Of a DNA stretch of 64,000 nucleotides, positions 39,925 to 64,000 are shown in pieces. Below the pieces are notes generated by a model that was not told the origin of the DNA, ran no database searches, and saw only the letters and a list, made by a program, of their open reading frames with translations. Each line of letters begins with the position of its first letter. Positions within the stretch are counted from its first letter, which is position 1. The DNA is taken from contig JAJZOF010000020.1 of assembly GCA_021811535.1 (NCBI GenBank), forward strand, positions 10,572-74,571. The letters are read 5' to 3'. The translations under genes and the position numbers were made by a program. The stretch comes from Candidatus Micrarchaeota archaeon (GTDB lineage Archaea; Micrarchaeota; Micrarchaeia; Micrarchaeales; CABMGC01).

Positions 39925-40431
39925 ATGGCGAGAAATAGCGAAGTTGATGAGGTAACCGAGAAGACCCTGCGTGCGGGAGGGGTGCTTGCAGTGCTTTATT
40001 TTGACATACACGGCAAGAACAAGGACGAACTTCAGCCGCTAATGGTGGACCTGATAAACAACAGGCTTCTCAAGACAAGGGGCGTTGTCTACTGCCATGG
40101 GAGCATAGAGTCGCCCATAGAGCTTGGTGATGGTTATTCCACTGCTGCAACCGTGGAGATATTGTTCAAGGACATAAAGGCGCTTGTGGAAGTATCGTTC
40201 AATTTCGCGCCTGTAGGGATAAACATACTCAAGCCTGAGAACGAATACGTAATCAAGATGCCTATGATGCAGTCGCTCATGCTTGATCTTGCGCAGATAT
40301 CGATTGAGTATTCAAATTACATACTTAGCAGGGTGCTTAATGAGGAAGAGTATAAGCGCATACAGGATAATATGAAGTCGCGCGAGGAGATAGGCAAGCA
40401 TATACTGGGAAAGACGGAGGGCAGCAGTTAA
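39925..40431 (+). CDS. Hypothetical protein
   Basis: 168-aa ORF that starts immediately after the hisS stop. I recognise no motif. Confidence 0.4.
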   Translation: MARNSEVDEVTEKTLRAGGVLAVLYFDIHGKNKDELQPLMVDLINNRLLKTRGVVYCHGSIESPIELGDGYSTAATVEILFKDIKALVEVSFNFAPVGINILKPENEYVIKMPMMQSLMLDLAQISIEYSNYILSRVLNEEEYKRIQDNMKSREEIGKHILGKTEGSS

Positions 40432-41534
40432 GCTACTATCTTCCTGCGCAGTATAAATCGCTTTATAATTTCTGTGGGCCTATCCATATCACCATAATCT
40501 CCAAGTATCCTGCCCGCGCCTGCTTTATTCAGCATCCTTATGACCATTCCCATCTCCCTCTCGCTGAGGGACCTGTACGCCCTGCTTATCATTGAGTGCA
40601 TCGCAAGATCCATCCTGTTCTTTCTCCTGAACCTGCTTTCGTAAGAGGAGAGCCTTGACCCGTGTATCATATGGTCCGCCACCGCCTCGCCGGCCATGAT
40701 CCCGCCCTGCGAACCGAATACTATGCCACCTCCTGTTGAGGCTTTCGTCTGGCCTGCGGCGTCGCCTGCGAGAAGCACATGATTTTTATCGTCTGCAATC
40801 TTCTGCCTGAGTCCTATGGGTATTATGCTTGCACCCTCCGAGATTATCTTTGCTCCTGATATTATTTCAGTGATTCCGTAATGGCTTATGAACCTGTCGA
40901 ATGCCCTCTTGCTGTTACCGTGCAAGGAGGATACGCCTACGCCGACCTCCAGGACATCTTTTCCGTTAGGACATACCCATGAGAATAACCCGGGGGAGAT
41001 GCTGTTGTCAAGGTATATGTCAACGCTCTCGGTATCCTGCGGCTCTGTATTGTATTCTACCCTGTATGTCAGGACATATCTCTTAACTGCGCCCATGCGG
41101 AATGTAGTTGCGACTTCTGATACAGCGCCGTCAGCGCCTATTATTATATCGTTCTTTGAGATTGCCATAAGTTCTGACGCGGAGAGCTTCCTGCCTGTTA
41201 TTATTGATACGCCTTCGCTTGCTGCCTCATCCATGCATATCTCGTTGAGAATTCCCCTGTCAAGCACCTTTGCTACTGGGGCCTTAGCCTTTACCTCCAA
41301 TACCGAATTACCTGCATGTATACGCGCTCCGGACAACGAGTTGGTGAGCGCCTTGGAGCAGTTAACCCCCAGACGCGAGAGCCCGTTTGCGGATACGATA
41401 CCTGAAGCCCTTATCGGATAGCCTGGCTTCTGCTTCTGGTCGTATATGGTTACATCTATCCCATATCTTGCTATGGTCTTTGCAGCCATTAACCCGGCAT
41501 TTCCGGCTCCTACAACATTGACTTTCCTTTGCAT
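40428..41534 (-). CDS. Geranylgeranyl reductase family protein (digeranylgeranylglycerophospholipid reductase-like)
   Basis: The FAD fold VNVVGAGNAGLMAAKTIARYGIDVTIYD and the family motif LLAGDAAGQTKASTGGGI are present. Confidence 0.85.
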   Translation of the reverse strand: MQRKVNVVGAGNAGLMAAKTIARYGIDVTIYDQKQKPGYPIRASGIVSANGLSRLGVNCSKALTNSLSGARIHAGNSVLEVKAKAPVAKVLDRGILNEICMDEAASEGVSIITGRKLSASELMAISKNDIIIGADGAVSEVATTFRMGAVKRYVLTYRVEYNTEPQDTESVDIYLDNSISPGLFSWVCPNGKDVLEVGVGVSSLHGNSKRAFDRFISHYGITEIISGAKIISEGASIIPIGLRQKIADDKNHVLLAGDAAGQTKASTGGGIVFGSQGGIMAGEAVADHMIHGSRLSSYESRFRRKNRMDLAMHSMISRAYRSLSEREMGMVIRMLNKAGAGRILGDYGDMDRPTEIIKRFILRRKIVA

Positions 41535-41746: not shown

Positions 41747-44700
41747 GTGCTATTTTTGGTAATACTATTTGGTATATTGGCTGTCATTGTGCCAGGCTTT
41801 CTCCTATCCTTTGCGCTGCTTGGGAAGACAAGAATGCCAAGGGTGGAGATATACTCGATAGGCGTAATATTCGGGCTCATCTTTCCGCCTACGCTGCAAT
41901 GGCTTGAGGCTTACCTGATACCTTATCTGCATTTCTTTTCGTATTCGATATGGCTGTACAACGCCAACGTAATACTTCTCTCTTTGATAGGTCTTGTGCT
42001 CTGCATTAAGCAGGGGGTGTTTGACCTAAACTCCGGGCTGGGCATGATAAAAGGCAGTGCAGGAGCAGGAGCTCTGCCTGCTGATCTCGACACCTCAAGC
42101 ATACACTCCGTGAGGAAGTGGATACATGAACACGGGGGCGAAGAAGGGGCTACTATGCTTGAGGAGCATAGGAAGAAGGAGAAGGAACTTGAGGATGAGC
42201 ATGCGCGCGAGATGGCTCTTCTCAAGGATTCGAGCGAGGAAGAGAGGAAGCGCGTCTCCGAGTCGCACAGGGAGGAGAAGAGACGCCTTGAGGAGCGTCA
42301 TCTTCACAGGGAGCTATCCTTTGTCAGGGATTCTCATGTAGGCAAGGCACATACTCACCGCAATAAGAAGCCTCTTCTGAGCACCAGCAACATAATAACT
42401 TTCCTTCTTGTGCTTCTTCTGATATTCACTTTTACCAGTCGTATGCTTAGTTTCGGGGTAGCGCCGAAATACTTCGAGTTTGACCCTTATTTTGATATGG
42501 TAAGCGCGCAGTACATACTTACTTATGGCTACCAGATACCATTTGACCATGCTGCATGGCCTTCTGTTGTGCAGGGAGTCAACCACAGGATACAGCCGCT
42601 CGTGCCTTATCTTGAGGTATACTGGTACGACCTTGCAAATACTAATTTCCACTACAAATATCTGAATAATACACTGCTGAGCCAAGTAAGCAGCCTTTAC
42701 CCTCCTCTTGTCGCCGCACTCCTTGTCTTTGTGGTATTCATCTTCATAAAGTATGATTACGGCGAGAAGGCAGCGATATTTGGCGCAACGCTTGTTGCCG
42801 CGATGCCGGTTATCTACCAGCCGTTTATAGCAGGTGAGCAGCTCCTTGAGCCGTGGGGCATATTCGCACTCTTCTTCTTCTTTGCCACTTACATTGTGGC
42901 GATAAGGAACATGAAGGAGAAGCGCTATGCGGTACTTGCAGGGATAGCGTTTGCATCAAACTTCCTTGGTGCACACTATTACTTTGTACCTGCCGCAATC
43001 ATAGGGCTTTACATATTCCTGCAGGGAGTAGTTAATCTCCTGAAGAACAAGGATAATACTGATTTCTACATTATGAACGCTATTGTAATATTGGTAATAA
43101 TAATATCGTACTTGCTTTATGCGCCGTATGGTGCGTCCCTTACAAACAGGACTCCGAGTGTGGCTGGTATACCTATAATAATAGCCATTCCTGTCTTTGC
43201 GCTTGTGGTTATATTCCTTCTGGATTACATACCCAGGACCGATGACCTGCCAAGAAGCGTAAGGAAATACACAGGAAGGCTCGTAAATATCAATGTCGCG
43301 GAGAAGGATCTCTTAATTACAAGGTTGGGGATCCTTGTAGTGATTGTAGTACTAGGCCTGCTCGTCACCTTCTTTACACCATTGGGTAAGCCCGTATTGA
43401 ATTATTTGAGCATAGGAGAGCACTTTACCACACCAAATACGCCGCTTTTCATGACGGTGCAGGAATACGCGCCAACCGGACTTAACTTCAACTTTGACAG
43501 CGCGGGCATGGGTTCTGTAGCGCTTCATCTGCCTGGTAATCTTCTGGTCCTTGGTGTACTGGCAATTTTCCTTGTCATCTCTGCAATGAACGTATTTTAC
43601 AAGAACTCGCAGACAAGCATACTTGCAGTATCCGTAATAGTCGTGCTTGCTTTTGCAGGGTTCAGCGAAGTCAAGTACCTTCCGCATTTTGCAGTAGGAT
43701 ATGCAATAGCGCTATCGGTAATAATTGGGGAGATAATAATCATAGCTGAGAGGGGGCTTAAGGATAAGATTTACGTTTATGCCACATACACTCTGATAGG
43801 TGTACTGGCCATGTCTGTATTCATACCTGTGCTGTATTCTGCATCTGCGGCTGCGCTTAACCCCAACTGCACTACTATACAGAATAGCAACAATCAGATT
43901 GGCGATTTCCTGTATTGCAATACCCTCTCCCCAAGCTGGATAGCTGCAACTGCTTGGATGAGGGCAAACGTCGGGCCCAATGCGCCGAGGATACTCTCGT
44001 GGTGGGATTACGGAGACTGGATCAACTGGTTCGGAAACAGCAACGCAGTGATAAGGGGCGACAATTCCGTGCCTACATATGATTACAAGGTTGCGGCACA
44101 GTATGTTCTTGGTCCTGCAGATGGGTACAACTATACGGAGCTTGCACATTTCATGGATTCGGCGCAGGCCGGATATGTCCTGTTTGACGACCAACTTGTA
44201 CCCAAGTGGGGTGCGCTTGATTTCCTTGCCTGTGTCGGGGTTAATGAGACTACAAGAGCCTTTGCGATAAGCGCAGGGCAGCAATACGGCCAGTCTTATG
44301 TGCTTGGGACTTCCAGATGCGAGCTTTCACATGACCCTTCCTACATAATGATACCTGAATCTGTCTTAACCAGCACAGGGTCCAGCATAGGCGATTATTG
44401 CTCGATCTCGAATAGCACAAACGTATACATAAAAGCCCTGCAGTTCACTGGCAGTTTCCCATTCGGGACCGTAGGAAATACCACCTATTGCATGCCTGAG
44501 TCATTCCTCTCTACTGGAGCGCCTGTACGTCTCTTTTACCAGAACGGCACCGAGACGAATATAGCAGTGTCTGATAGCTTCTTTGAGGGAGCAGTGCCTA
44601 CTAGCAATAACCAGACATTCTTAAGCTTCATGGCAATATACATGCCGAACGGGCCTAATGACACGATCACGGATGCGCCTTCCGAATTCTACCAGTCAAA

Positions 44701-44896
44701 TTACTATAGGGGATTCTTCCTTGGGAAGCTCCCTGGATTCACTTTGGTATATCCTTCGAACGTGACAGGAGTCAACTACGTGAATAACACAGGAAATCAT
44801 ATAATGATATTCAAGCTTGACAACTTCACTGGTACGCTCCCTTACGTAGTGCCGAAGCCGAGCTGGATACATAATAATTATTCCATTCCTGGATAA
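41747..44896 (+). CDS. aglB: Oligosaccharyltransferase AglB (STT3 family) with a long N-terminal extension
   Basis: 1049-aa ORF with a GTG start. It has the catalytic WWDYGDWI motif, an EFDPYFDMV first-loop acidic motif and many TM helices. The first ~215 aa (3 TM helices plus a charged His/Glu/Arg/Lys segment) precede the canonical TM1. Confidence 0.88.
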   Translation: MLFLVILFGILAVIVPGFLLSFALLGKTRMPRVEIYSIGVIFGLIFPPTLQWLEAYLIPYLHFFSYSIWLYNANVILLSLIGLVLCIKQGVFDLNSGLGMIKGSAGAGALPADLDTSSIHSVRKWIHEHGGEEGATMLEEHRKKEKELEDEHAREMALLKDSSEEERKRVSESHREEKRRLEERHLHRELSFVRDSHVGKAHTHRNKKPLLSTSNIITFLLVLLLIFTFTSRMLSFGVAPKYFEFDPYFDMVSAQYILTYGYQIPFDHAAWPSVVQGVNHRIQPLVPYLEVYWYDLANTNFHYKYLNNTLLSQVSSLYPPLVAALLVFVVFIFIKYDYGEKAAIFGATLVAAMPVIYQPFIAGEQLLEPWGIFALFFFFATYIVAIRNMKEKRYAVLAGIAFASNFLGAHYYFVPAAIIGLYIFLQGVVNLLKNKDNTDFYIMNAIVILVIIISYLLYAPYGASLTNRTPSVAGIPIIIAIPVFALVVIFLLDYIPRTDDLPRSVRKYTGRLVNINVAEKDLLITRLGILVVIVVLGLLVTFFTPLGKPVLNYLSIGEHFTTPNTPLFMTVQEYAPTGLNFNFDSAGMGSVALHLPGNLLVLGVLAIFLVISAMNVFYKNSQTSILAVSVIVVLAFAGFSEVKYLPHFAVGYAIALSVIIGEIIIIAERGLKDKIYVYATYTLIGVLAMSVFIPVLYSASAAALNPNCTTIQNSNNQIGDFLYCNTLSPSWIAATAWMRANVGPNAPRILSWWDYGDWINWFGNSNAVIRGDNSVPTYDYKVAAQYVLGPADGYNYTELAHFMDSAQAGYVLFDDQLVPKWGALDFLACVGVNETTRAFAISAGQQYGQSYVLGTSRCELSHDPSYIMIPESVLTSTGSSIGDYCSISNSTNVYIKALQFTGSFPFGTVGNTTYCMPESFLSTGAPVRLFYQNGTETNIAVSDSFFEGAVPTSNNQTFLSFMAIYMPNGPNDTITDAPSEFYQSNYYRGFFLGKLPGFTLVYPSNVTGVNYVNNTGNHIMIFKLDNFTGTLPYVVPKPSWIHNNYSIPG

Positions 44897-59588: not shown

Positions 59589-60617
59589 TTGGCCATTGTG
59601 CAGGCTCCAGGAGTGATTAAGCTGTTTGGTGAGCATGCAGTAGTTTATGGCAGGCTCTCTGCTGCGATAGCCGTGAGCTTGTATTCAAGCGTCTCAGTCG
59701 ATGAAGCGGGAGGGGAAGGGAAGGTGTGCATATCCCTTCCGGATTTCTCATTGGAAGCAGAGTTTTCGGATGCAGAGCTCTTGGATATTGCATCGGAATA
59801 CTCTACACGGGGCTCGATAAGCGCATATCTCGATAATTTTAAACAGAGAGTGGATTCAAGGCTCCTGCCATACGCCACTATCATAGGCAGGTACCGCGCT
59901 GACGGTGGCAGAATGAGCGCGAAGAGATTCGAGATACGTTCGATGATACCGGTGCAGAAGGGGCTGGCCAGCAGTGCGGCGTGCTCTGTTGCTCTCTCTG
60001 TTGCTGCCGCAAATCTTTATCATGGTTCTTACACTGAAGAGGACGTGATAGAGCGTGCGCTTGACGGCGACAGGATAATACACAGAAACGAGAATGCCGG
60101 GAAGATAGACGTGCCTACCTCATTCTATGGCGGATGCATAAGCTACAACAAGGAAGGTGGAGTACGGAGGGAGGAGCTTGGCGCGAGTATGGAGATTGCT
60201 ATTGTTGATACCGGGCCTAAAAAGAGCACGGCGGAGACGGTAGGAATAGTCTCAAAGCTTCATGAGAAAAATGCACCTTATGCAGAGAGGCTTTTTGATA
60301 GTATAGACTTATGCGCAAGAAGAGGCATAGAGGCGATTAGGGGAGGCAACCTTGAGGCTGTAGGCAAGGAGATGTATTCCAATCATGATGCGCTTGCGAT
60401 GCTTGGAGTCTCGAGCGATGGACTGGACAGGTTAGTCTCTTGCGCGAAGGCCTGCGGGGCGTACGGAGCCAAGCTCAGCGGAGGAGGAGGAGGCGGAATG
60501 GCAATAGTGCTGTGCGATAAGGAAACTTGCGGATGCATTAGGAAGAATGGATTCGAATGCACACCAGTAAGCGTCTCGATAGACGGAGGAGTAACTTTCC
60601 TGAAAGGGCGCAGATGA
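59589..60617 (+). CDS. mvk: Mevalonate kinase (GHMP family)
   Basis: APGVIKLFGEHAVVYG, the GHMP motif II PVQKGLASSAACSVA and KLSGGGGGG are present. The start is TTG at 59589 or GTG at 59598. Confidence 0.88.
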   Translation: MAIVQAPGVIKLFGEHAVVYGRLSAAIAVSLYSSVSVDEAGGEGKVCISLPDFSLEAEFSDAELLDIASEYSTRGSISAYLDNFKQRVDSRLLPYATIIGRYRADGGRMSAKRFEIRSMIPVQKGLASSAACSVALSVAAANLYHGSYTEEDVIERALDGDRIIHRNENAGKIDVPTSFYGGCISYNKEGGVRREELGASMEIAIVDTGPKKSTAETVGIVSKLHEKNAPYAERLFDSIDLCARRGIEAIRGGNLEAVGKEMYSNHDALAMLGVSSDGLDRLVSCAKACGAYGAKLSGGGGGGMAIVLCDKETCGCIRKNGFECTPVSVSIDGGVTFLKGRR

Positions 60618-60755: not shown

Positions 60756-61826
60756 GTGAATATAAAGGAGACTGATGCAAAAGCGATTTTTAAGAAAGAG
60801 GGAATACGCGTACCTCTCAGCTTTGAGGTATTCTCGGCTGCAGACGCAATCCGCGGATTTAATGCTTTGGGAAGTAATGCGGTGATAAAGCCTATTGGGA
60901 TAAAGGGTAGGGGCAAGCGGGGGCTTGTCTCTTTTGTCTCTTCCGGGGATGAAGCTGCAGAAGCCTCGATGCAGATGCTTGGTTTGAATGTGGATGGGCA
61001 TGTTATCGAGAGCCTCATAATAGAGGAGCGCGTGGATCCTTCTAGGGAATATTACTTTGCATTCTCGCTTGATTTTGCAAGTGCTAAGGCAGTTGCAATA
61101 GCAGGCAATGGAGGCATCAACGTTGAGGATGGCAAGGCATCTTTGGAAAAGTATTATTTTGATCTTGGCGGGGGATTTGGGGTTGATGAGGCAAATAGGC
61201 TTATAGAGGCAGCAGGCATTGCAGAGAAGGAAGAGGCGAGTAGACTTATCATGGGAATTTACAAGATATTCTGCGCTTACGGTGCGGAGACGGTAGAGAT
61301 AAACCCGGCAGGGGTAGACCGCAACGGGAAACTGATAGCCCTTGATGCGGTTATATCACTCGATAATGCCCAGATAGGCCATGATGAGGTAAGGGATGGC
61401 ATAGGAGCAAGGATGCGAAATAGGGGATGGTCTTATGTTGATATTGGAGGGGATATAGGATTAGTATGCAGCGGGGCAGGGCTTGCGATGGCCACACTGG
61501 ATATGATAAGCATGGCTGGCGGAAAGCCTGCAAACTTTTTAGACCTGGCGCAGGTTGACGGAGACGGCTTGTATGAAGCATGTTGCATTCTCAGCGAACG
61601 CGGATCTATGAAGGCAATCCTGGTGAACCTCTTTGCAGGACTGAACAGGTGCGATGAGATGGCGGAAGGAGTGCGCAGGTTTGTAGAGGATAAAAAGCCT
61701 GGATTAAAGATTGTCGTAAGAATGGCAGGGAACAGGGTTAGTGAAGCGGAAGAAGTTCTGTTAGGATGCGGAATACGCAATTTTGCAGACCTGGAGAGTG
61801 CAGTGAAGGCTGCGGTTGATGCTTGA
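60756..61826 (+). CDS. sucC: Succinyl-CoA-synthetase-like ADP-forming CoA ligase, beta (ATP-grasp) subunit
   Basis: GTG start. MNIKETDAKAIFKKEGIRVP is at the N-terminus. GKPANFLDL and AILVNLFAGLNRCDEMAEGV are colinear by eye with E. coli SucC. At 356 aa it is slightly short. Confidence 0.8.
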   Translation: MNIKETDAKAIFKKEGIRVPLSFEVFSAADAIRGFNALGSNAVIKPIGIKGRGKRGLVSFVSSGDEAAEASMQMLGLNVDGHVIESLIIEERVDPSREYYFAFSLDFASAKAVAIAGNGGINVEDGKASLEKYYFDLGGGFGVDEANRLIEAAGIAEKEEASRLIMGIYKIFCAYGAETVEINPAGVDRNGKLIALDAVISLDNAQIGHDEVRDGIGARMRNRGWSYVDIGGDIGLVCSGAGLAMATLDMISMAGGKPANFLDLAQVDGDGLYEACCILSERGSMKAILVNLFAGLNRCDEMAEGVRRFVEDKKPGLKIVVRMAGNRVSEAEEVLLGCGIRNFADLESAVKAAVDA

Positions 61827-62698
61827 TGGGAATAATACTAAACAAGGATACTAAGGTCCTAGTGCAGGGCATAACTGGCAGGGCTGGTAGTAGGCATGCA
61901 ATATCTATGCTTGAGTATGGTACGCGGGTAGTAGGTGGGGTCAGGCCTGGAGCTGGCGGCGGAAGTGTCCATGGAGTACCTGTATTCGATACGGTATCCG
62001 AAGCTGTCAAGGCTACTGGCGCAAACTCTTCTGTTCTTTTCGTCCCACCTGCTGCGGCGCTTGAGGCAGCTCTAGAGGCCATTGATGCCGGGATAAAGCT
62101 TGTTGTAGCCCCTCCGGAAAATATACAATTGCACAGCGAGGTACGGATGGTCGCTGCAGCGAGAGGGGCAGGGGCTATTCTTATAGGACCAAATACTGCA
62201 GGGATAATAGACCCTGCGTTGAAGGTTAAGATAGGCTTTGTGCCTGAAGCTGTTTTTTCCCCAGGAAAGATAGGGATAGCTTCCAGGAGCGGCACTTTGA
62301 TGTATGAGATGGCTTCGAGGATATCTGAGGTAGGGCTTGGAGAATCCACATGTGTTGGAGTGGGAGGAGACCCAGTCCAGGGTCTAAGGTTCTCTGATGT
62401 ATGTAAGCTCTTTGAGAAAGACAGGGAGACTAAAACAATATTGCTCATAGGCGAGATAGGCGGGTCGCAGGAAGAAGAAGTCGCATCGATGGTATTGGAC
62501 GGATCGATAAAAAAGCCGGTTGTGGCTTATATGGCAGGTAGGTATGCACCCAGAGGCAGGAAAATGGGTCATGCTGGCGCAATAGTATCTGGAATCGGTG
62601 GAAGTATAGGGGAGAAGGTCGCGGCATTCAGGGAGGCGGGAATATCAGTTGGATCCACGCCTGGAGAGACTGTGAGGCTTATAGAAGAGGGAATGTGA
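61823..62698 (+). CDS. sucD: Succinyl-CoA-synthetase-like CoA ligase, alpha subunit
   Basis: KVLVQGITGRAGSRH, SRSGTLMYE, STCVGVGGDP and the phosphohistidine loop MGHAGAIV are present. There is an ATGA overlap with sucC. Confidence 0.9.
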   Translation: MMGIILNKDTKVLVQGITGRAGSRHAISMLEYGTRVVGGVRPGAGGGSVHGVPVFDTVSEAVKATGANSSVLFVPPAAALEAALEAIDAGIKLVVAPPENIQLHSEVRMVAAARGAGAILIGPNTAGIIDPALKVKIGFVPEAVFSPGKIGIASRSGTLMYEMASRISEVGLGESTCVGVGGDPVQGLRFSDVCKLFEKDRETKTILLIGEIGGSQEEEVASMVLDGSIKKPVVAYMAGRYAPRGRKMGHAGAIVSGIGGSIGEKVAAFREAGISVGSTPGETVRLIEEGM

Positions 62699-62702
62699 TT
62701 TG

Positions 62703-64000
62703 ATGGCTTACGAGATAGAGAGAAGATACCCAGCGCAGAGAAAGAAGTTTGATAGTATCCTTGACACTCTCGCTGAAGGAGTTTTCAGGGGGCGAGTGCC
62801 GCTCCACAGGGTTCCGCAGGAGATTGAGAAGAGGTTTGAGCAGGGCAAGGTAAGGGCATATACTTCTGCGTTCACGGAGAAAGAAATTGCCTCTTTTTAT
62901 CAGTACTTTGCAGGAGAGGTGCTTAGAAGGGGCGTGGAGAAGCATATGGAAGCATCCGGAAACGGTGTAAGGCTTGAATACCTGAGGGATTCTGCCCACT
63001 GGGATCTTGCCTCAGAGTCAGGGAAACCGGAATATGTACAGTATATAGGCGGGGACAGGGTAACAATTGCAGGGCCGGTAAGCATCGAGGTCGAGGTAAA
63101 TGAAAACGGGCGCAAGGTGTCCGGCTTCGGCGCTTCTGAATTTATACCGATGTGCAATTTCAGGGGCGGAGTTACTGAGGGAGTGAGCTTTGGAATAAGG
63201 ATGATTAAAAAGCTTGTGGATTATGGTTCAAGCGGAACAGTGAAGATCTATGCGGAAAGGGATTCTGTAGCGACCAGATCGCCGACTTTCAGGTTCGAAA
63301 ATTTTGAGGATGCGGATGCAGCGCGGAGAGCGATAACATCAGCGGAATTCCTATCGGACATATACGATGCTGCTAACAGGATCCTCTCGCAGAAAGGCGG
63401 GGTGCTTGGTGATATGACATGCTCTTATGCGAAGAATGGAGAAGGACATGAACTCTCGGTGAATTTCATATACAGGATGGGCGGGGATTTTTACGGGCAC
63501 GAGATAGCCACGTATGCTACTGGCATACTCTTGAGGAACTTCCTTACTGCGAGACTTGATGCGAAAAAGATTCCTTATAGGAGCCTCTGGCTTGCCGGAG
63601 GAGAGGATGGGGACATGGCAGTCTCTGATAAGAGCATCCGCGGCAGGAAGGTGAAGGCTGCGGTCTTCCTTCCAGAATCATACATATTGCACGAAGTCTC
63701 CGGAAAAGGAGGATATGGAGGGGCTGAAGACATGCACATCATGAGCTACTCTAAGAACCATCTCTGGAGGGAAAGATTAGGGGCTGGGGCACATATGTGC
63801 GGAATGGAGCCTGAGATAATAGCCGGGGTGATGGCGGCAGTCGCAGGCTCTCCGCCCGTATTATCTTCATCATGCGTTACCGATGCCGAGCCTTATAAGA
63901 TGAAAGGCACGGAAGGCATAATGTACTCTGTGACGCTTACCAATTTCGAATGGGGGAGTGAAGGGCTGGACTCTCCGACAAGAAAGGAATGCGAAGCGAT
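62703..64000 (+). CDS. HMG-CoA-reductase-fold protein with substituted catalytic motifs (5' part; runs off the window)
   Basis: Not in the ORF track because it is open at the window edge. My manual translation from ATG at 62703 is stop-free to 64000. It begins MAYEIERRYPAQRKKFDSILDTLAEG. Later segments include YIGGDRVTIAGPVSIEV, EFIPMCNFRGGVTEGVSFGIRMI, RMGGDFYGHEIATYATG, VSDKSIRGRKVKAAVFLPE, IIAGVMAAVAGSPPV and IMYSVTLTNFEWGSEGLDSPTRKECEA. Confidence 0.6.
   Translation, partial: MAYEIERRYPAQRKKFDSILDTLAEGVFRGRVPLHRVPQEIEKRFEQGKVRAYTSAFTEKEIASFYQYFAGEVLRRGVEKHMEASGNGVRLEYLRDSAHWDLASESGKPEYVQYIGGDRVTIAGPVSIEVEVNENGRKVSGFGASEFIPMCNFRGGVTEGVSFGIRMIKKLVDYGSSGTVKIYAERDSVATRSPTFRFENFEDADAARRAITSAEFLSDIYDAANRILSQKGGVLGDMTCSYAKNGEGHELSVNFIYRMGGDFYGHEIATYATGILLRNFLTARLDAKKIPYRSLWLAGGEDGDMAVSDKSIRGRKVKAAVFLPESYILHEVSGKGGYGGAEDMHIMSYSKNHLWRERLGAGAHMCGMEPEIIAGVMAAVAGSPPVLSSSCVTDAEPYKMKGTEGIMYSVTLTNFEWGSEGLDSPTRKECEA

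What the first reader, a model, noticed from the sequence alone, without database searches (positions are those of the whole stretch)
60756..64000. SucC/SucD-type CoA ligase tightly coupled to an HMG-CoA-reductase-fold protein whose catalytic motifs appear substituted
An edge-truncated ORF starts 4 nt after sucD (ATG 62703) and is open to 64000. By eye it aligns with class I HMG-CoA reductase catalytic domains as I remember them. EYVQYIGGDRVTIAGPVSI matches EN.IG..(I/V)P.G.AGPL. FIPMCNFRGGVTEGVSFGIRMI matches (V/I)PMATTEG.LVAS.NRG...I. VSDKSIRGRKVKAAVFLP matches DKKP...N.I.GRGKSV.AE..(I/L)P. IMYSVTLTNFEWGSEGLDSPTRKECEA matches L(Y/F).SVT(L/M)P....GTVGGGT....Q.ECL. However, positions I remember as catalytic or substrate-binding differ. 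The TTEG glutamate position reads Arg (NFRG). The GDAMGMN block reads GGDFYGH. The GQD(A/E)A aspartate region reads AGSPPV. Only the DK lysine position looks retained. The fold therefore seems kept while the canonical chemistry is probably lost or changed. The gene is packed behind an apparently intact SucC/SucD pair (ATGA overlap at 61823..61826, 4-nt gap at 62699..62702). It also lies 140 nt downstream of mevalonate kinase. One hypothesis is that a CoA-ligase plus HMGR-fold module acts on a non-canonical acid/acyl-CoA pair. Another is a pseudoenzyme partner. I am not aware of this arrangement as a described system.
Basis: partly seen in the sequence, partly recalled or inferred. Interest (0 to 1): 0.7.

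Follow-up and report, generated by a model that had tools for sequence, protein, structure and literature searches.

The report
Dead HMG-CoA reductase copy with ligase
A small symbiotic-type archaeon (Micrarchaeota) carries a conserved operon: an unusual succinyl-CoA-synthetase-like ligase, a rare HMG-CoA reductase copy that has lost its catalytic residues, and a normal reductase. This points to an undescribed ATP-driven way of feeding free hydroxymethylglutarate into lipid-precursor synthesis.

Summary
The core observation holds. Window 62703-64000 starts a 481-aa protein (L) that is a true but very remote class I HMG-CoA reductase homologue (profile-profile E 2e-33; AF2 model matches human and archaeal HMGR at E 1e-19).

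- **Catalytic residues:** Glu, Lys, Asp, His and both NADPH motifs are replaced.
- **Retained residues:** the HMG-carboxylate ligands (R590, K735, D690 equivalents) are kept.
- **Canonical HMGR:** an intact one lies 9 nt downstream, just outside the window.
- **Rarity:** L has 14 representatives among 1.84 billion proteins. All genome hits are DPANN archaea. It is under strong purifying selection (dN/dS 0.08).
- **Synteny:** the order SucC-SucD-L-(HMGR) is conserved at 30% identity.
- **The ligase:** SucC is not canonical. It belongs to a sharply delimited clade (SGAGL / FLDxAQ / FAGLNRCD). In bacteria this clade sits in regulator-ligase-carboxylate transporter-HMG-CoA lyase operons. It also sits once beside a degradative class II HMGR, and in some archaea directly beside HMGR without L.

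The shared metabolite is HMG-CoA. The best reading is an ADP-forming HMG:CoA ligase feeding HMGR, with L as a non-reductase HMG-binding accessory. No step is biochemically tested. I found no description in the literature.

The parts
59589..60617 (+). Mevalonate kinase, 342 aa, 138 nt upstream of the module
   Evidence: TIGR00549 mevalonate kinase 183.9 bits (cut-off 163); GHMP_kinases_N and _C. A mevalonate kinase homologue lies next to the module in L007, L009, L012, L013/L017 and L036 as well.
60756..61826 (+). SucC-like beta subunit (SucC*), 356 aa, of the 'FAGLN' clade. Candidate carboxylate-specificity subunit of an ADP-forming HMG:CoA ligase.
   Evidence: ATP-grasp_2 plus Ligase_CoA domains. 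The best PDB match is Thermus SCS beta at E 1e-51, against citryl-CoA synthetase at E 4e-19. NCBIfam SucC gives 216 bits against a cut-off of 370. The hallmark motifs are changed to CSGAGLAM, FLDLAQVD and NLFAGLNRCD. These changes are invariant in 7 module copies and in all 43 top database clusters; everything scoring lower is canonical.
61826..62698 (+). SucD-like alpha subunit (SucD*), 290 aa from ATG 61826 (alternative TTG 61823), overlapping the sucC stop
   Evidence: NF004230 SucD 348 bits (cut-off 336). CoA_binding plus Ligase_CoA domains. The phosphohistidine motif MGHAGA and SRSGTLMYE are present. Clade-specific KIGFVPE replaces the canonical KxGIMPG.
62703..64000 (+). HMG-CoA-reductase-fold paralogue 'L'. 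The first 432 of 481 codons lie in the window; the gene would end at about 64148. The reductase catalytic residues and NADPH motifs are replaced. The HMG-carboxylate ligands are kept.
   Evidence: Full length P0001, 481 aa. hhalign against canonical HMGR: 99.9%, E 2e-33. AF2 pLDDT 82.7 and Foldseek to 1hw8 and 6hr8 at E about 1e-19. 39 invariant residues across 10 family members at 28-37% identity. dN/dS 0.083.

Best explanation
The window ends inside a conserved DPANN-archaeal operon: (MVK)-SucC*-SucD*-L-H. H is an ordinary class I HMG-CoA reductase lying just past the window.

Proposed mechanism:
1. SucC*D* is not the TCA-cycle enzyme. It is an ADP-forming ligase that makes HMG-CoA from free 3-hydroxy-3-methylglutarate: HMG + ATP + CoA -> HMG-CoA + ADP + Pi. 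It would use the usual phosphohistidine / acyl-phosphate route.
2. H reduces HMG-CoA to mevalonate, and the adjacent kinase phosphorylates it. The module is therefore an ATP-driven salvage or side entry into the mevalonate pathway.
3. L is a duplicate of HMGR that can no longer bind NADPH or carry out hydride chemistry, but it keeps the pocket residues that hold the HMG carboxylate. An invariant Arg now sits where the catalytic Glu faced the thioester carbon. This suits a free dicarboxylate rather than a CoA ester.
4. L most likely acts as an HMG (or HMG-derivative) binding accessory or regulatory subunit. It would couple the ligase to the reductase, probably as an L2 dimer docking on SucC*D* and/or on H2.

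Shown: homology, residue replacements, purifying selection, synteny, the clade boundary and the clade's gene contexts.

Inferred: the ligase substrate, the direction of flux, any physical complex, and what L binds.
For: 1. L is an HMGR homologue with a remodelled site (hhalign; PDB profile alignment).
   - Replaced: E559->R154 (invariant), K691->M305, D767->A381, H866->K477, DAMGMN->GDFYGHE (H266 invariant), GTVGGGT->WGSEGLD (E416, G418, E420 invariant).
   - Retained: R590=R192, D690=D304, R702=R313, K735=K351.
2. A canonical HMGR with TTEG, GAAMGMN, DKKP, GQD, GGGT and the C-terminal His lies 9 nt downstream.
3. L is under purifying selection like its neighbours: dN/dS is L 0.083, H 0.067, SucC* 0.135, SucD* 0.098.
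4. The order SucC*-SucD*-L is conserved in at least 8 independent lineages at 29-37% L identity. H follows in most of them, and further mevalonate-pathway genes often follow.
5. SucC* belongs to a clean clade. All 43 best database clusters have SGAGL / FLDxAQ / FAGLNRCD, and all lower-scoring ones have the canonical NGAGL / GGGA / FGGI.
6. The same clade occurs in bacteria as regulator-SucC*-SucD*-transporter-HMG-CoA lyase.
   - The transporter is one of four different types: TAXI-TRAP, TctCBA, Liv-type ABC or DctPQM.
   - The lyase is present in 15 loci. Of the 9 tested against NF004283 (cut-off 246), 6 pass at 365-424 bits and 3 divergent ones score 141-193.
7. One bacterial locus has a degradative class II HMGR (TIGR00532, 490 bits) directly upstream of SucC*D* and a TAXI binding protein.
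8. Archaeal loci L026-28 have SucC*-SucD*-class I HMGR with no L. The only metabolite common to the lyase and both reductase classes is HMG-CoA.
Against: - No enzyme activity has been measured.
- A large FAGLN subclade (L022, L023, L029, L044, L052 and others) has no HMG-related neighbours. It could be those bacteria's housekeeping succinyl-CoA synthetase, so the motif set alone does not prove a new substrate.
- The DPANN loci carry no adjacent transporter, and I know of no source of free HMG for these cells.
- At least one module-bearing lineage also encodes an HMG-CoA synthase in the same cluster (L017). Salvage is therefore not obligatory there.
- The bacterial ligases work without L, so L is not needed for ligation and its role is the weakest link.
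- The reading of SucC motif changes as substrate-pocket changes rests on my memory of the pig GTP-SCS-succinate structure. I could not check it here.
Confidence: 0.45

Rival explanations
1. L is a prozyme-type dead paralogue whose only job is to modulate the canonical HMGR, by hetero-oligomerising with H as an activator, inhibitor or stabiliser. The ligase is functionally unrelated to L and is co-located only because it also serves the pathway.
For: The catalytic residues are lost, yet dN/dS is 0.083. L is immediately upstream of H in most loci. L clearly arose from a class I HMGR.
Against: - L stays with SucC*D* when H is not adjacent (L011).
- H stays with SucC*D* when L is absent (L026-28). 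L therefore tracks the ligase at least as tightly as it tracks H.
- In class I HMGR the NADPH domain and the catalytic His of each site come from the partner monomer (established structure knowledge). An L:H catalytic dimer would therefore disable H's site.
- L carries a new set of invariant charged residues (R154, H266, E371, E416, E420; E267 is an Asp in one member) in the old pocket. This suggests ligand binding of its own.
Confidence: 0.2
2. SucC*D* is a genuine, if divergent, succinyl-CoA synthetase. L is a neofunctionalised enzyme that uses succinyl-CoA, for example a succinyl-CoA:HMG CoA-transferase, to make HMG-CoA for H.
For: The closest solved structures are succinyl-CoA synthetases. 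SucD* passes the SucD equivalog cut-off. FAGLN subclade (ii) looks housekeeping. L keeps HMG-carboxylate ligands and has gained an Arg and several invariant acidic residues.
Against: - Bacterial operons have SucC*D* + transporter + HMG-CoA lyase with no L and no CoA-transferase, which makes no sense if the product is succinyl-CoA.
- L026-28 link SucC*D* directly to HMGR without L.
- The CoA-contacting Arg (human R568) is not kept in L.
- SucC* misses the SucC cut-off by about 150 bits.
Confidence: 0.12
3. SucC*D* plus L replace the thiolase step. They would supply acetoacetyl-CoA for HMG-CoA synthase, either by ATP-dependent activation of acetoacetate or by an ATP-driven condensation.
For: The L017 supercluster holds the prenyl synthase, HMG-CoA synthase, HMGR, three GHMP kinases, the decarboxylase and isomerase candidates, but no thiolase. 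SucC*D*-L sits in the middle.
Against: - Thiolases are often encoded elsewhere, and a survey of Micrarchaeota MAGs reports acetyl-CoA C-acetyltransferase as ancestral (PMC12892359).
- The bacterial lyase operons and the class II HMGR locus are not explained by an acetoacetate ligase.
- L keeps residues that bind the HMG carboxylate, not an obvious acetoacetyl site.
Confidence: 0.07
4. L is still an oxidoreductase or another catalyst acting on an activated HMG species with a different cofactor or mechanism. One example is reduction of the ligase's acyl-phosphate intermediate. Another is hydration/dehydration between 3-methylglutaconate and HMG.
For: 39 invariant residues include a new His with an adjacent acidic residue (Glu, Asp in one member) in place of GMN, and Arg in place of the catalytic Glu. 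Selection is as strong as on H. An AcnX hydratase-family gene accompanies the ligase in two bacterial loci.
Against: Both NADPH motifs and the 2'-phosphate ligands are gone. There is no precedent for such chemistry on this fold, and nothing here tests it.
Confidence: 0.1
5. The arrangement is a chance adjacency, or L is a decaying duplicate.
For: The Pfam score of L is below the gathering threshold.
Against: The synteny is conserved at 30% identity across two DPANN phyla. dN/dS is 0.083. The ORFs are intact and full-length in all lineages.
Confidence: 0.01

Closest known systems
Class I HMG-CoA reductase (EC 1.1.1.34; human catalytic domain 1DQA/1HW8, Methanothermococcus thermolithotrophicus 6HR7/6HR8)
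   Same: Same three-domain fold over about 400 residues (Foldseek E about 1e-19, TM 0.59/0.69; hhalign E 2e-33). The ENxIG-like strand, MTR-type Arg (R590), cis-loop Asp (D690), GRG Arg (R702) and K735 are kept.
   Different: Catalytic Glu, Lys, Asp and His are replaced (R154, M305, A381, K477). DAMGMN and GTVGGGT are replaced. The cis-loop is 3 residues shorter. The protein is about 65 residues longer, mostly at the N terminus. It fails the Pfam gathering score. It is always accompanied by a SucCD-type ligase.
Succinyl-CoA synthetase SucCD (EC 6.2.1.5; Thermus 3UFX, E. coli 1CQI/2SCU, M. jannaschii alpha 2YV1)
   Same: Same two-subunit architecture, ATP-grasp beta subunit, CoA-binding alpha subunit with GHAGA phosphohistidine, and translationally coupled genes.
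   Different: The beta subunit carries SGAGL / FLDxAQ / FAGLNRCD instead of NGAGL / FLDxGGGA / FGGI(V/T)RCD. The alpha subunit carries KxGFVP(S/N/E) instead of KxGIMPG. The gene contexts are HMG-CoA lyase or HMG-CoA reductases and carboxylate importers, not TCA genes.
Citryl-CoA synthetase + citryl-CoA lyase / ATP-citrate lyase (6HXQ, 6HXJ)
   Same: A SucCD-type module activates a 3-hydroxy-3-substituted glutarate skeleton (citrate is the 3-carboxy analogue of HMG). It hands the CoA ester to a dedicated second module encoded next to it. This is a useful working analogy for SucC*D* + L/H.
   Different: Sequence similarity is much weaker than to SCS (72 against 179 bits for beta; 151 against 295 bits for alpha). 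The downstream partner here has an HMGR fold, not a citrate-synthase fold.
Succinate-hydroxymethylglutarate CoA-transferase (SUGCT, EC 2.8.3.13), from my own knowledge
   Same: The only described enzyme class I know that converts free HMG to HMG-CoA.
   Different: It is a type III CoA-transferase using succinyl-CoA, not an ATP-dependent ligase, and it is unrelated in sequence.
Pseudomonas mevalonii mvaAB (class II degradative HMGR + HMG-CoA lyase), from my own knowledge
   Same: The bacterial FAGLN operons end in the same HMG-CoA lyase step. One of them (L041) carries the degradative class II reductase.
   Different: mvaAB needs no ligase because HMG-CoA arises by oxidation of mevalonate. The operons here add an importer and a SucCD-type ligase.
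Catalytically dead paralogue partners ('prozymes', e.g. trypanosomatid AdoMetDC prozyme), from my own knowledge
   Same: A duplicated enzyme that has lost its catalytic residues, is kept under selection and is encoded beside the active copy.
   Different: No evidence yet of a heteromer. L tracks the ligase at least as closely as it tracks the active paralogue.

Membership tests
Class I HMG-CoA reductase | HMGR fold (N, L and S domains) | tested here: met
   AF2 model pLDDT 82.7, pTM 0.85. The top 50 Foldseek PDB hits are all HMGR, best 1hw8_A at E 7.4e-20. hhalign 99.9%, 398 columns.
Class I HMG-CoA reductase | Pfam PF00368 gathering score | tested here: not met
   21.1 bits against a cut-off of 27 for the 432-aa window fragment, with only residues 125-260 matched. 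There is no NCBIfam hit.
Class I HMG-CoA reductase | Catalytic Glu (human E559, TTEG) | tested here: not met
   Aligned to R154, which is invariant in 10 family members.
Class I HMG-CoA reductase | Catalytic Lys of the cis-loop (human K691, DKKP) | tested here: not met
D304 aligns to D690 and M305 to K691 (Leu or Met in the family). This holds in both hhalign and the hmmsearch-PDB alignment.
Class I HMG-CoA reductase | Catalytic Asp (human D767, GQD) | tested here: not met
   Aligned to A381 in the window protein. The family has a Pro-rich PPSPP motif there.
Class I HMG-CoA reductase | Catalytic His of the C-terminal helix (human H866) | tested here: inconclusive
   hhalign places K477 opposite the His. 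The C terminus of the model has pLDDT of 39-53, and the family has an unrelated conserved NQH motif at 463-465.
Class I HMG-CoA reductase | NADPH-binding motifs DAMGXN and G(T/S)VGGGT | tested here: not met
   They read GDFYGHE and WGSEGLD.
Class I HMG-CoA reductase | NADPH-dependent reduction of HMG-CoA | not testable with these tools
   Needs an enzyme assay.
Succinyl-CoA synthetase beta subunit (SucC) | ATP-grasp_2 + Ligase_CoA architecture | tested here: met
   PF08442 98 bits, PF00549 44 bits.
Succinyl-CoA synthetase beta subunit (SucC) | NCBIfam equivalog/subfamily cut-offs | tested here: not met
   NF001913 215.8 against 370; TIGR01016 200.7 against 375.55.
Succinyl-CoA synthetase beta subunit (SucC) | Hallmark C-terminal-domain motifs NGAGLAM, FLDxGGGA, NIFGGI(V/T)RCD | tested here: not met
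   They read CSGAGLAM, FLDLAQVD and NLFAGLNRCD. The clade boundary falls exactly between 379 and 373 bits in the database ranking.
Succinyl-CoA synthetase alpha subunit (SucD) | Equivalog score, phosphohistidine GHAGA, SRSGTL motif | tested here: met
   NF004230 348 against 336. TIGR01019 falls just short at 341.5 against 353.2. MGHAGA and SRSGTLMYE are present.
Succinyl-CoA synthetase (function) | Succinate as the preferred acid; TCA-cycle role | not testable with these tools
   Gene context argues against it.
Citryl-CoA synthetase / ATP-citrate lyase | Closest sequence similarity to CcsAB/ACL subunits | tested here: not met
   Beta: 72 bits to 6hxq_B against 179 bits to SCS. Alpha: 151 bits to 6hxq_A against 295 bits to SCS.
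Proposed ADP-forming HMG:CoA ligase (FAGLN clade) | Clade motifs plus adjacency to an HMG-CoA-consuming enzyme | tested here: met
   The motifs are present. A class I HMGR lies two genes downstream. Clade members lie beside HMG-CoA lyase (15 loci), a class II HMGR (1 locus) and class I HMGR.
Proposed ADP-forming HMG:CoA ligase (FAGLN clade) | HMG-dependent ADP/Pi release and HMG-CoA formation | not testable with these tools
   Needs an enzyme assay.
Dead-paralogue (pseudoenzyme) partner | Loss of catalytic residues, purifying selection, co-encoding with the active paralogue | tested here: met
Dead-paralogue (pseudoenzyme) partner | Physical complex with, and effect on, the active enzyme | not testable with these tools
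   No multimer prediction or experiment was available.

The most novel reading that the evidence does not exclude
DPANN archaea run a previously unrecognised ATP-dependent entry into the mevalonate pathway from free 3-hydroxy-3-methylglutarate. Three parts would act as one assembly:
- a new SucCD-type HMG:CoA ligase;
- a dedicated HMG-binding subunit (L) derived from HMG-CoA reductase;
- the reductase itself.

This would channel the substrate in the way that ATP-citrate lyase couples citryl-CoA synthetase to its lyase module. The same ligase clade would define an undescribed bacterial pathway for growth on HMG: import, ligation, then HMG-CoA lyase.
Probability: 0.3. Interest if true: 0.8.

Novelty: new variant of a known kind. 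Interest (0 to 1): 0.72.

Why it matters
If the reading is right, four things follow.

1. It adds a new enzyme activity (ADP-forming HMG:CoA ligase) to the well-studied SucCD family. Dozens of genes now auto-annotated as "succinate--CoA ligase" would need re-annotation.
2. It reveals an unrecognised bacterial catabolic operon for HMG or a close analogue.
3. It changes how lipid-precursor autonomy is scored in DPANN genomes. "SucCD" is currently counted towards the TCA cycle, and a second "HMGR" hit may be miscounted.
4. L would be the first example I know of an HMG-CoA reductase fold recruited to a non-reductase role. It would be a clean natural experiment on what the HMG pocket does once the hydride chemistry is removed.

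The system is directly testable with four small soluble proteins.

Tried and rejected
- **Single-sequence searches of L are nearly blind.** phmmer against PDB gave E 0.05 and Pfam scored below threshold. Only family profiles gave significance.
- **Literature.** Six full-text searches found no description of an HMGR-like paralogue next to SucCD, of an ATP-dependent HMG:CoA ligase, or of the ligase-transporter-lyase operon. The paper on succinate binding in pig SCS is not in the library, so the pocket interpretation of the SucC motifs stays a recollection.
- **Supplements of the Micrarchaeota survey** (PMC12892359) do not list these MAGs or per-genome HMGCS calls.
- **Whole-genome questions could not be answered.** These are a second SucCD, a thiolase and HMGCS in GCA_041825655.1.
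- **P0014/L104**, the most divergent L-like sequence, lies on a 2-kb contig and is split into two ORFs. It gives no context.
- **L036 upstream genes** were checked as possible thiolase/HMGCS. They are HTH-FIST, AMP-binding-like and LuxC-like instead.
- **The MVK row of the dN/dS table** used misregistered coordinates and is discarded.
- **Sigma-70 promoter/terminator scans** were not run, because the organism is an archaeon.
- **An L:H catalytic heterodimer** was considered and set aside. In class I HMGR the partner monomer supplies the NADPH domain and the catalytic His, and L lacks both.

Full report
**What is in the window**

Three + strand ORFs are packed head to tail (junctions read).
- A SucC-like gene runs from 60756 to 61826 (GTG start).
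- A SucD-like gene starts at ATG 61826, sharing one base with the sucC stop (TGATG). A TTG at 61823 is an alternative start.
- After a 4-nt gap (TTTG, 62699-62702), an ORF starts at ATG 62703 and is still open at 64000.
- Mevalonate kinase (TIGR00549, 184 bits against a cut-off of 163) ends 138 nt upstream of sucC.

**The third ORF is a real but very remote HMG-CoA reductase homologue**

The 432-aa fragment scores only 21.1 bits on Pfam HMG-CoA_red, below the cut-off of 27, and it has no NCBIfam hit. The full protein (P0001, 481 aa) was recovered from identical contigs.
- Alone, it reaches only E 0.05 against PDB sequences.
- A profile of ten family members (A1) hits Arabidopsis HMGR1 at E 1e-17.
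- The same profile aligns to a profile of canonical class I reductases (A2) with 99.9% probability, E 2e-33, over 398 columns.
- An AlphaFold2 model built on A1 (pLDDT 82.7, pTM 0.85) finds only HMG-CoA reductases in PDB. The best hits are human 1hw8 at E 7e-20 and the archaeal 6hr8 at E 4e-19.

I call this protein L.

**Catalytic positions**

Human numbering below comes from established knowledge of the Istvan-Deisenhofer structures. The alignments come, and conservation.

| Human HMGR | L (window protein) | Note |
|---|---|---|
| E559 (TTEG) | R154 | invariant in L |
| K691 (DKKP) | M305 | Leu or Met in the family |
| D767 (GQD) | A381 | the family has a PPSPP motif here |
| H866 | K477 | low-confidence C terminus |
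| DAMGMN | GDFYGHE | H266 invariant, E267 nearly so |
| GTVGGGT | WGSEGLD | E416, G418, E420 invariant |
| R590 | R192 (TRSP) | retained |
| D690 | D304 | retained |
| R702 | R313 | retained |
| K735 | K351 | retained |

It lies five residues after the cis-loop Asp-Lys position, and neither residue is invariant in the family.

L has therefore lost the hydride-transfer machinery and the NADPH motifs. It keeps the side chains that hold the free carboxylate end of HMG. It also places an invariant Arg where the Glu faced the thioester carbon. The CoA-contacting Arg (human R568) is not kept either. This pattern suits a free dicarboxylate better than a CoA ester. That last step is inference.

**Just beyond the window**

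On the full contig (GCA_041825655.1, JBBELT010000032) a 416-aa gene starts 9 nt after L. Its translation has every class I hallmark: ATTEG, GAAMGMN, SDKKP, GQDMAQ, GTYGGGT and the C-terminal SSSH. I call it H. L is therefore not the organism's reductase. The flanks (MCM, archaeal RNA polymerase subunits, ribosomal proteins) show that the organism is an archaeon.

**Rarity, taxonomy and selection**

- An exhaustive phmmer of L against 1.84 billion cluster representatives returned 14 proteins at E <= 1e-3. Two of them are ordinary HMGRs at E about 4e-4.
- A scan of one genome for each of 185,579 species found five loci. All are DPANN archaea: three Micrarchaeota, one of them 90% identical to the window, and two Aenigmatarchaeota.
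- Ten family members at 28-37% identity share 39 invariant residues.
- Between this genome and the 90% relative, dN/dS is 0.083 for L, 0.067 for H, 0.135 for SucC and 0.098 for SucD.

L is a maintained gene, not a decaying copy.

**Synteny**

SucC-SucD-L occurs in the same order and orientation, with tiny or negative spacers, in every lineage where the flank is available: L001/L010, L007, L009, L011, L012, L013/L017, L019 and L036.
- H follows L in all of these except L011, where L is followed by unrelated genes.
- Further mevalonate-pathway genes often follow: mevalonate kinase, decarboxylase and other GHMP kinases.
- In L017 the module sits inside a cluster with a prenyl synthase, a long-type HMG-CoA synthase, isomerase candidates and a glycerol-phosphate dehydrogenase. 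There is no thiolase.
- Three archaeal loci (L026-28) have SucC-SucD-H with no L.

**The ligase is not a standard SucCD**

SucD looks canonical. It scores 348 bits against a cut-off of 336, has GHAGA and SRSGTL, and its best PDB matches are archaeal SCS alpha subunits.

SucC scores 216 bits against a cut-off of 370. In all seven module copies it carries SGAGLxM, FLDxAQ and FAGLNRCD. Solved SCS beta subunits have NGAGLxM, FLDxGGGA and FGGI(T/M)R(A/C)D at these positions.

A profile search of 5.8 billion proteins gave a clean break. The 43 best clusters (379 bits or more) all have the variant motifs, and every cluster below (373 bits or less) has the canonical ones. The partner alpha subunits share a clade-specific KxGFVP(S/N) in place of KxGIMPG. 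I call this the FAGLN clade and its subunits SucC*D*.

**What the clade sits next to elsewhere**

A pattern scan of metagenomes (FAGLNRCD plus ANFLDxAQ) returned 80 loci. I clustered their ORFs and labelled the recurrent families. A neighbour-joining tree splits the clade into three groups.

1. **An archaeal group.** Its neighbours are L and/or class I HMGR.
2. **A bacterial group with a recurrent operon:** XRE-cupin or IclR regulator, SucC*, SucD*, a carboxylate importer, then an HMG-CoA-lyase-family gene.
   - The importer is of four interchangeable kinds: TAXI-TRAP, TctCBA, Liv-type ABC or DctPQM.
   - The lyase gene is present in 15 loci.
   - Of the 9 lyases tested against NF004283 "hydroxymethylglutaryl-CoA lyase" (cut-off 246), 6 pass at 365-424 bits and 3 divergent ones score 141-193.
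   - One locus of this group (L041) has a degradative class II HMG-CoA reductase (TIGR00532, 490 bits) immediately upstream of SucC*D* and a TAXI binding protein.
3. **A bacterial group with uninformative neighbours,** such as riboflavin genes and pyruvate kinase.

**Inference**

An importer plus a CoA ligase plus a CoA-ester lyase reads as a catabolic route: take up an acid, activate it, cleave it. The lyase, the class II reductase and the class I reductase share one substrate, HMG-CoA.

The most economical reading is that SucC*D* forms HMG-CoA from free 3-hydroxy-3-methylglutarate with ATP and CoA. Bacteria would feed it to the lyase. The DPANN archaea would feed it to HMGR and on to mevalonate kinase. 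L is present only in the archaeal group and is absent from working-looking bacterial operons. It is therefore not needed for ligation. Its conserved HMG-type pocket and its tight linkage to SucC*D* suggest an HMG-binding accessory or regulatory subunit that couples the ligase and the reductase.

I put 0.45 on this package. The ligase assignment is the stronger half and the role of L the weaker half.

**Caveats and rivals**

- Group 3 could be the ordinary succinyl-CoA synthetase of its hosts. In that case the motifs alone do not define a new substrate.
- The DPANN loci show no importer, and I know of no source of free HMG for these cells.
- L017 also encodes HMG-CoA synthase, so the module is an additional input there, not a replacement.
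- Some cultivated Micrarchaeota are reported to lack both succinyl-CoA synthetase and HMGR (PMC8975820). A MAG survey reports complete mevalonate pathways, including thiolase and HMGCS, in several orders (PMC12892359). Neither paper mentions this module.

The rivals are listed with their tests in the rival-explanations section of this report:
- L as a pure HMGR "prozyme";
- a true SCS plus L as a CoA-transferase;
- a thiolase bypass;
- L as a catalyst with new chemistry.

Chance adjacency or pseudogene decay is excluded.

**Comparison with known systems and verdict**

L works on the HMGR scaffold, but it fails four of the family's defining catalytic features and both cofactor motifs, so it should not be filed as an HMG-CoA reductase. 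SucD* is a member of the SucD family. SucC* has the SucC architecture but fails the equivalog scores and hallmark motifs.

The closest functional analogy is citryl-CoA synthetase handing its product to an adjacent module, because citrate is the 3-carboxy analogue of HMG. The only described free-HMG-to-HMG-CoA enzyme I know is the unrelated CoA-transferase SUGCT.

I found no prior description in six full-text searches. I rate the finding as a new variant of known kinds: a SucCD-type ligase with a probable new acid, and a reductase-dead HMGR paralogue. It has clear, cheap biochemical tests. Interest 0.72.

Noticed in passing
window 10075-10893 (-): A 272-aa amino-acid-kinase-family protein (PF00696, 120 bits). 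It is a candidate isopentenyl phosphate kinase, which would indicate an archaeal-type lower mevalonate pathway in the same genome.
   Followed up: partly
window 40428-41534 (-) and 41747-44896 (+): A geranylgeranyl reductase (GGR_cat) lies next to a 1049-aa ORF with no Pfam hit at all.
   Followed up: no
window 10907-13923 (-): Adjacent FAD-linked oxidase (FAD_binding_4 / FAD-oxidase_C, 501 aa) and DAO/DAO_C glycerol-3-phosphate-dehydrogenase-like (about 520 aa) genes. The two ORFs overlap by about 80 nt as listed.
   Followed up: no
L017 3816-5228 and 17465-18394: The Aenigmatarchaeota-type isoprenoid supercluster has a long (N+C domain) HMG-CoA synthase and a bacterial-type NAD-dependent glycerol-3-phosphate dehydrogenase rather than G1P dehydrogenase. 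It also has both NUDIX and FMN-type isomerase candidates and no thiolase.
   Followed up: partly
L037 and L039, 11003-12211: An aconitase-X family gene (PF04412, 477 bits) follows FAGLN SucCD-IclR, with a DctPQM importer and no lyase. This may be a variant route via a hydratase.
   Followed up: partly
L041 606-1871: A degradative class II HMG-CoA reductase (TIGR00532, 490 bits) lies directly upstream of FAGLN SucCD and a TAXI binding protein in a bacterial contig.
   Followed up: yes
L026, L027, L028 (for example L026 2624-6004): Archaeal contigs (diphthamide synthase, L10e, FtsZ nearby) with FAGLN SucC-SucD followed by a canonical class I HMGR and no L gene.
   Followed up: yes
L022, L023, L029, L034, L044, L045, L052, L056, L058, L060, L066, L069: A FAGLN subclade whose neighbours (riboflavin operon, pyruvate kinase, a conserved 225-aa protein that I have not characterised) have nothing to do with HMG. 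It may be a housekeeping enzyme in those bacteria.
   Followed up: partly
L104 10-1357: The most divergent L-like gene is split into 377-aa and 82-aa ORFs on a 2-kb contig. This is either a frameshift or an assembly error.
   Followed up: no
L019 2571-2822: An 83-aa winged-helix protein is inserted between SucD* and L in one lineage.
   Followed up: partly
L036 692-4768: Upstream of one archaeal module lie an HTH-FIST sensor, an AMP-binding-like protein and a LuxC-like acyl-CoA reductase / aldehyde dehydrogenase.
   Followed up: partly
L014 881-1364: A Micrarchaeaceae genome holds only a 160-residue stretch similar to the middle of L, on a 4.7-kb contig. It may be a remnant or a fragmented assembly.
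   Followed up: no
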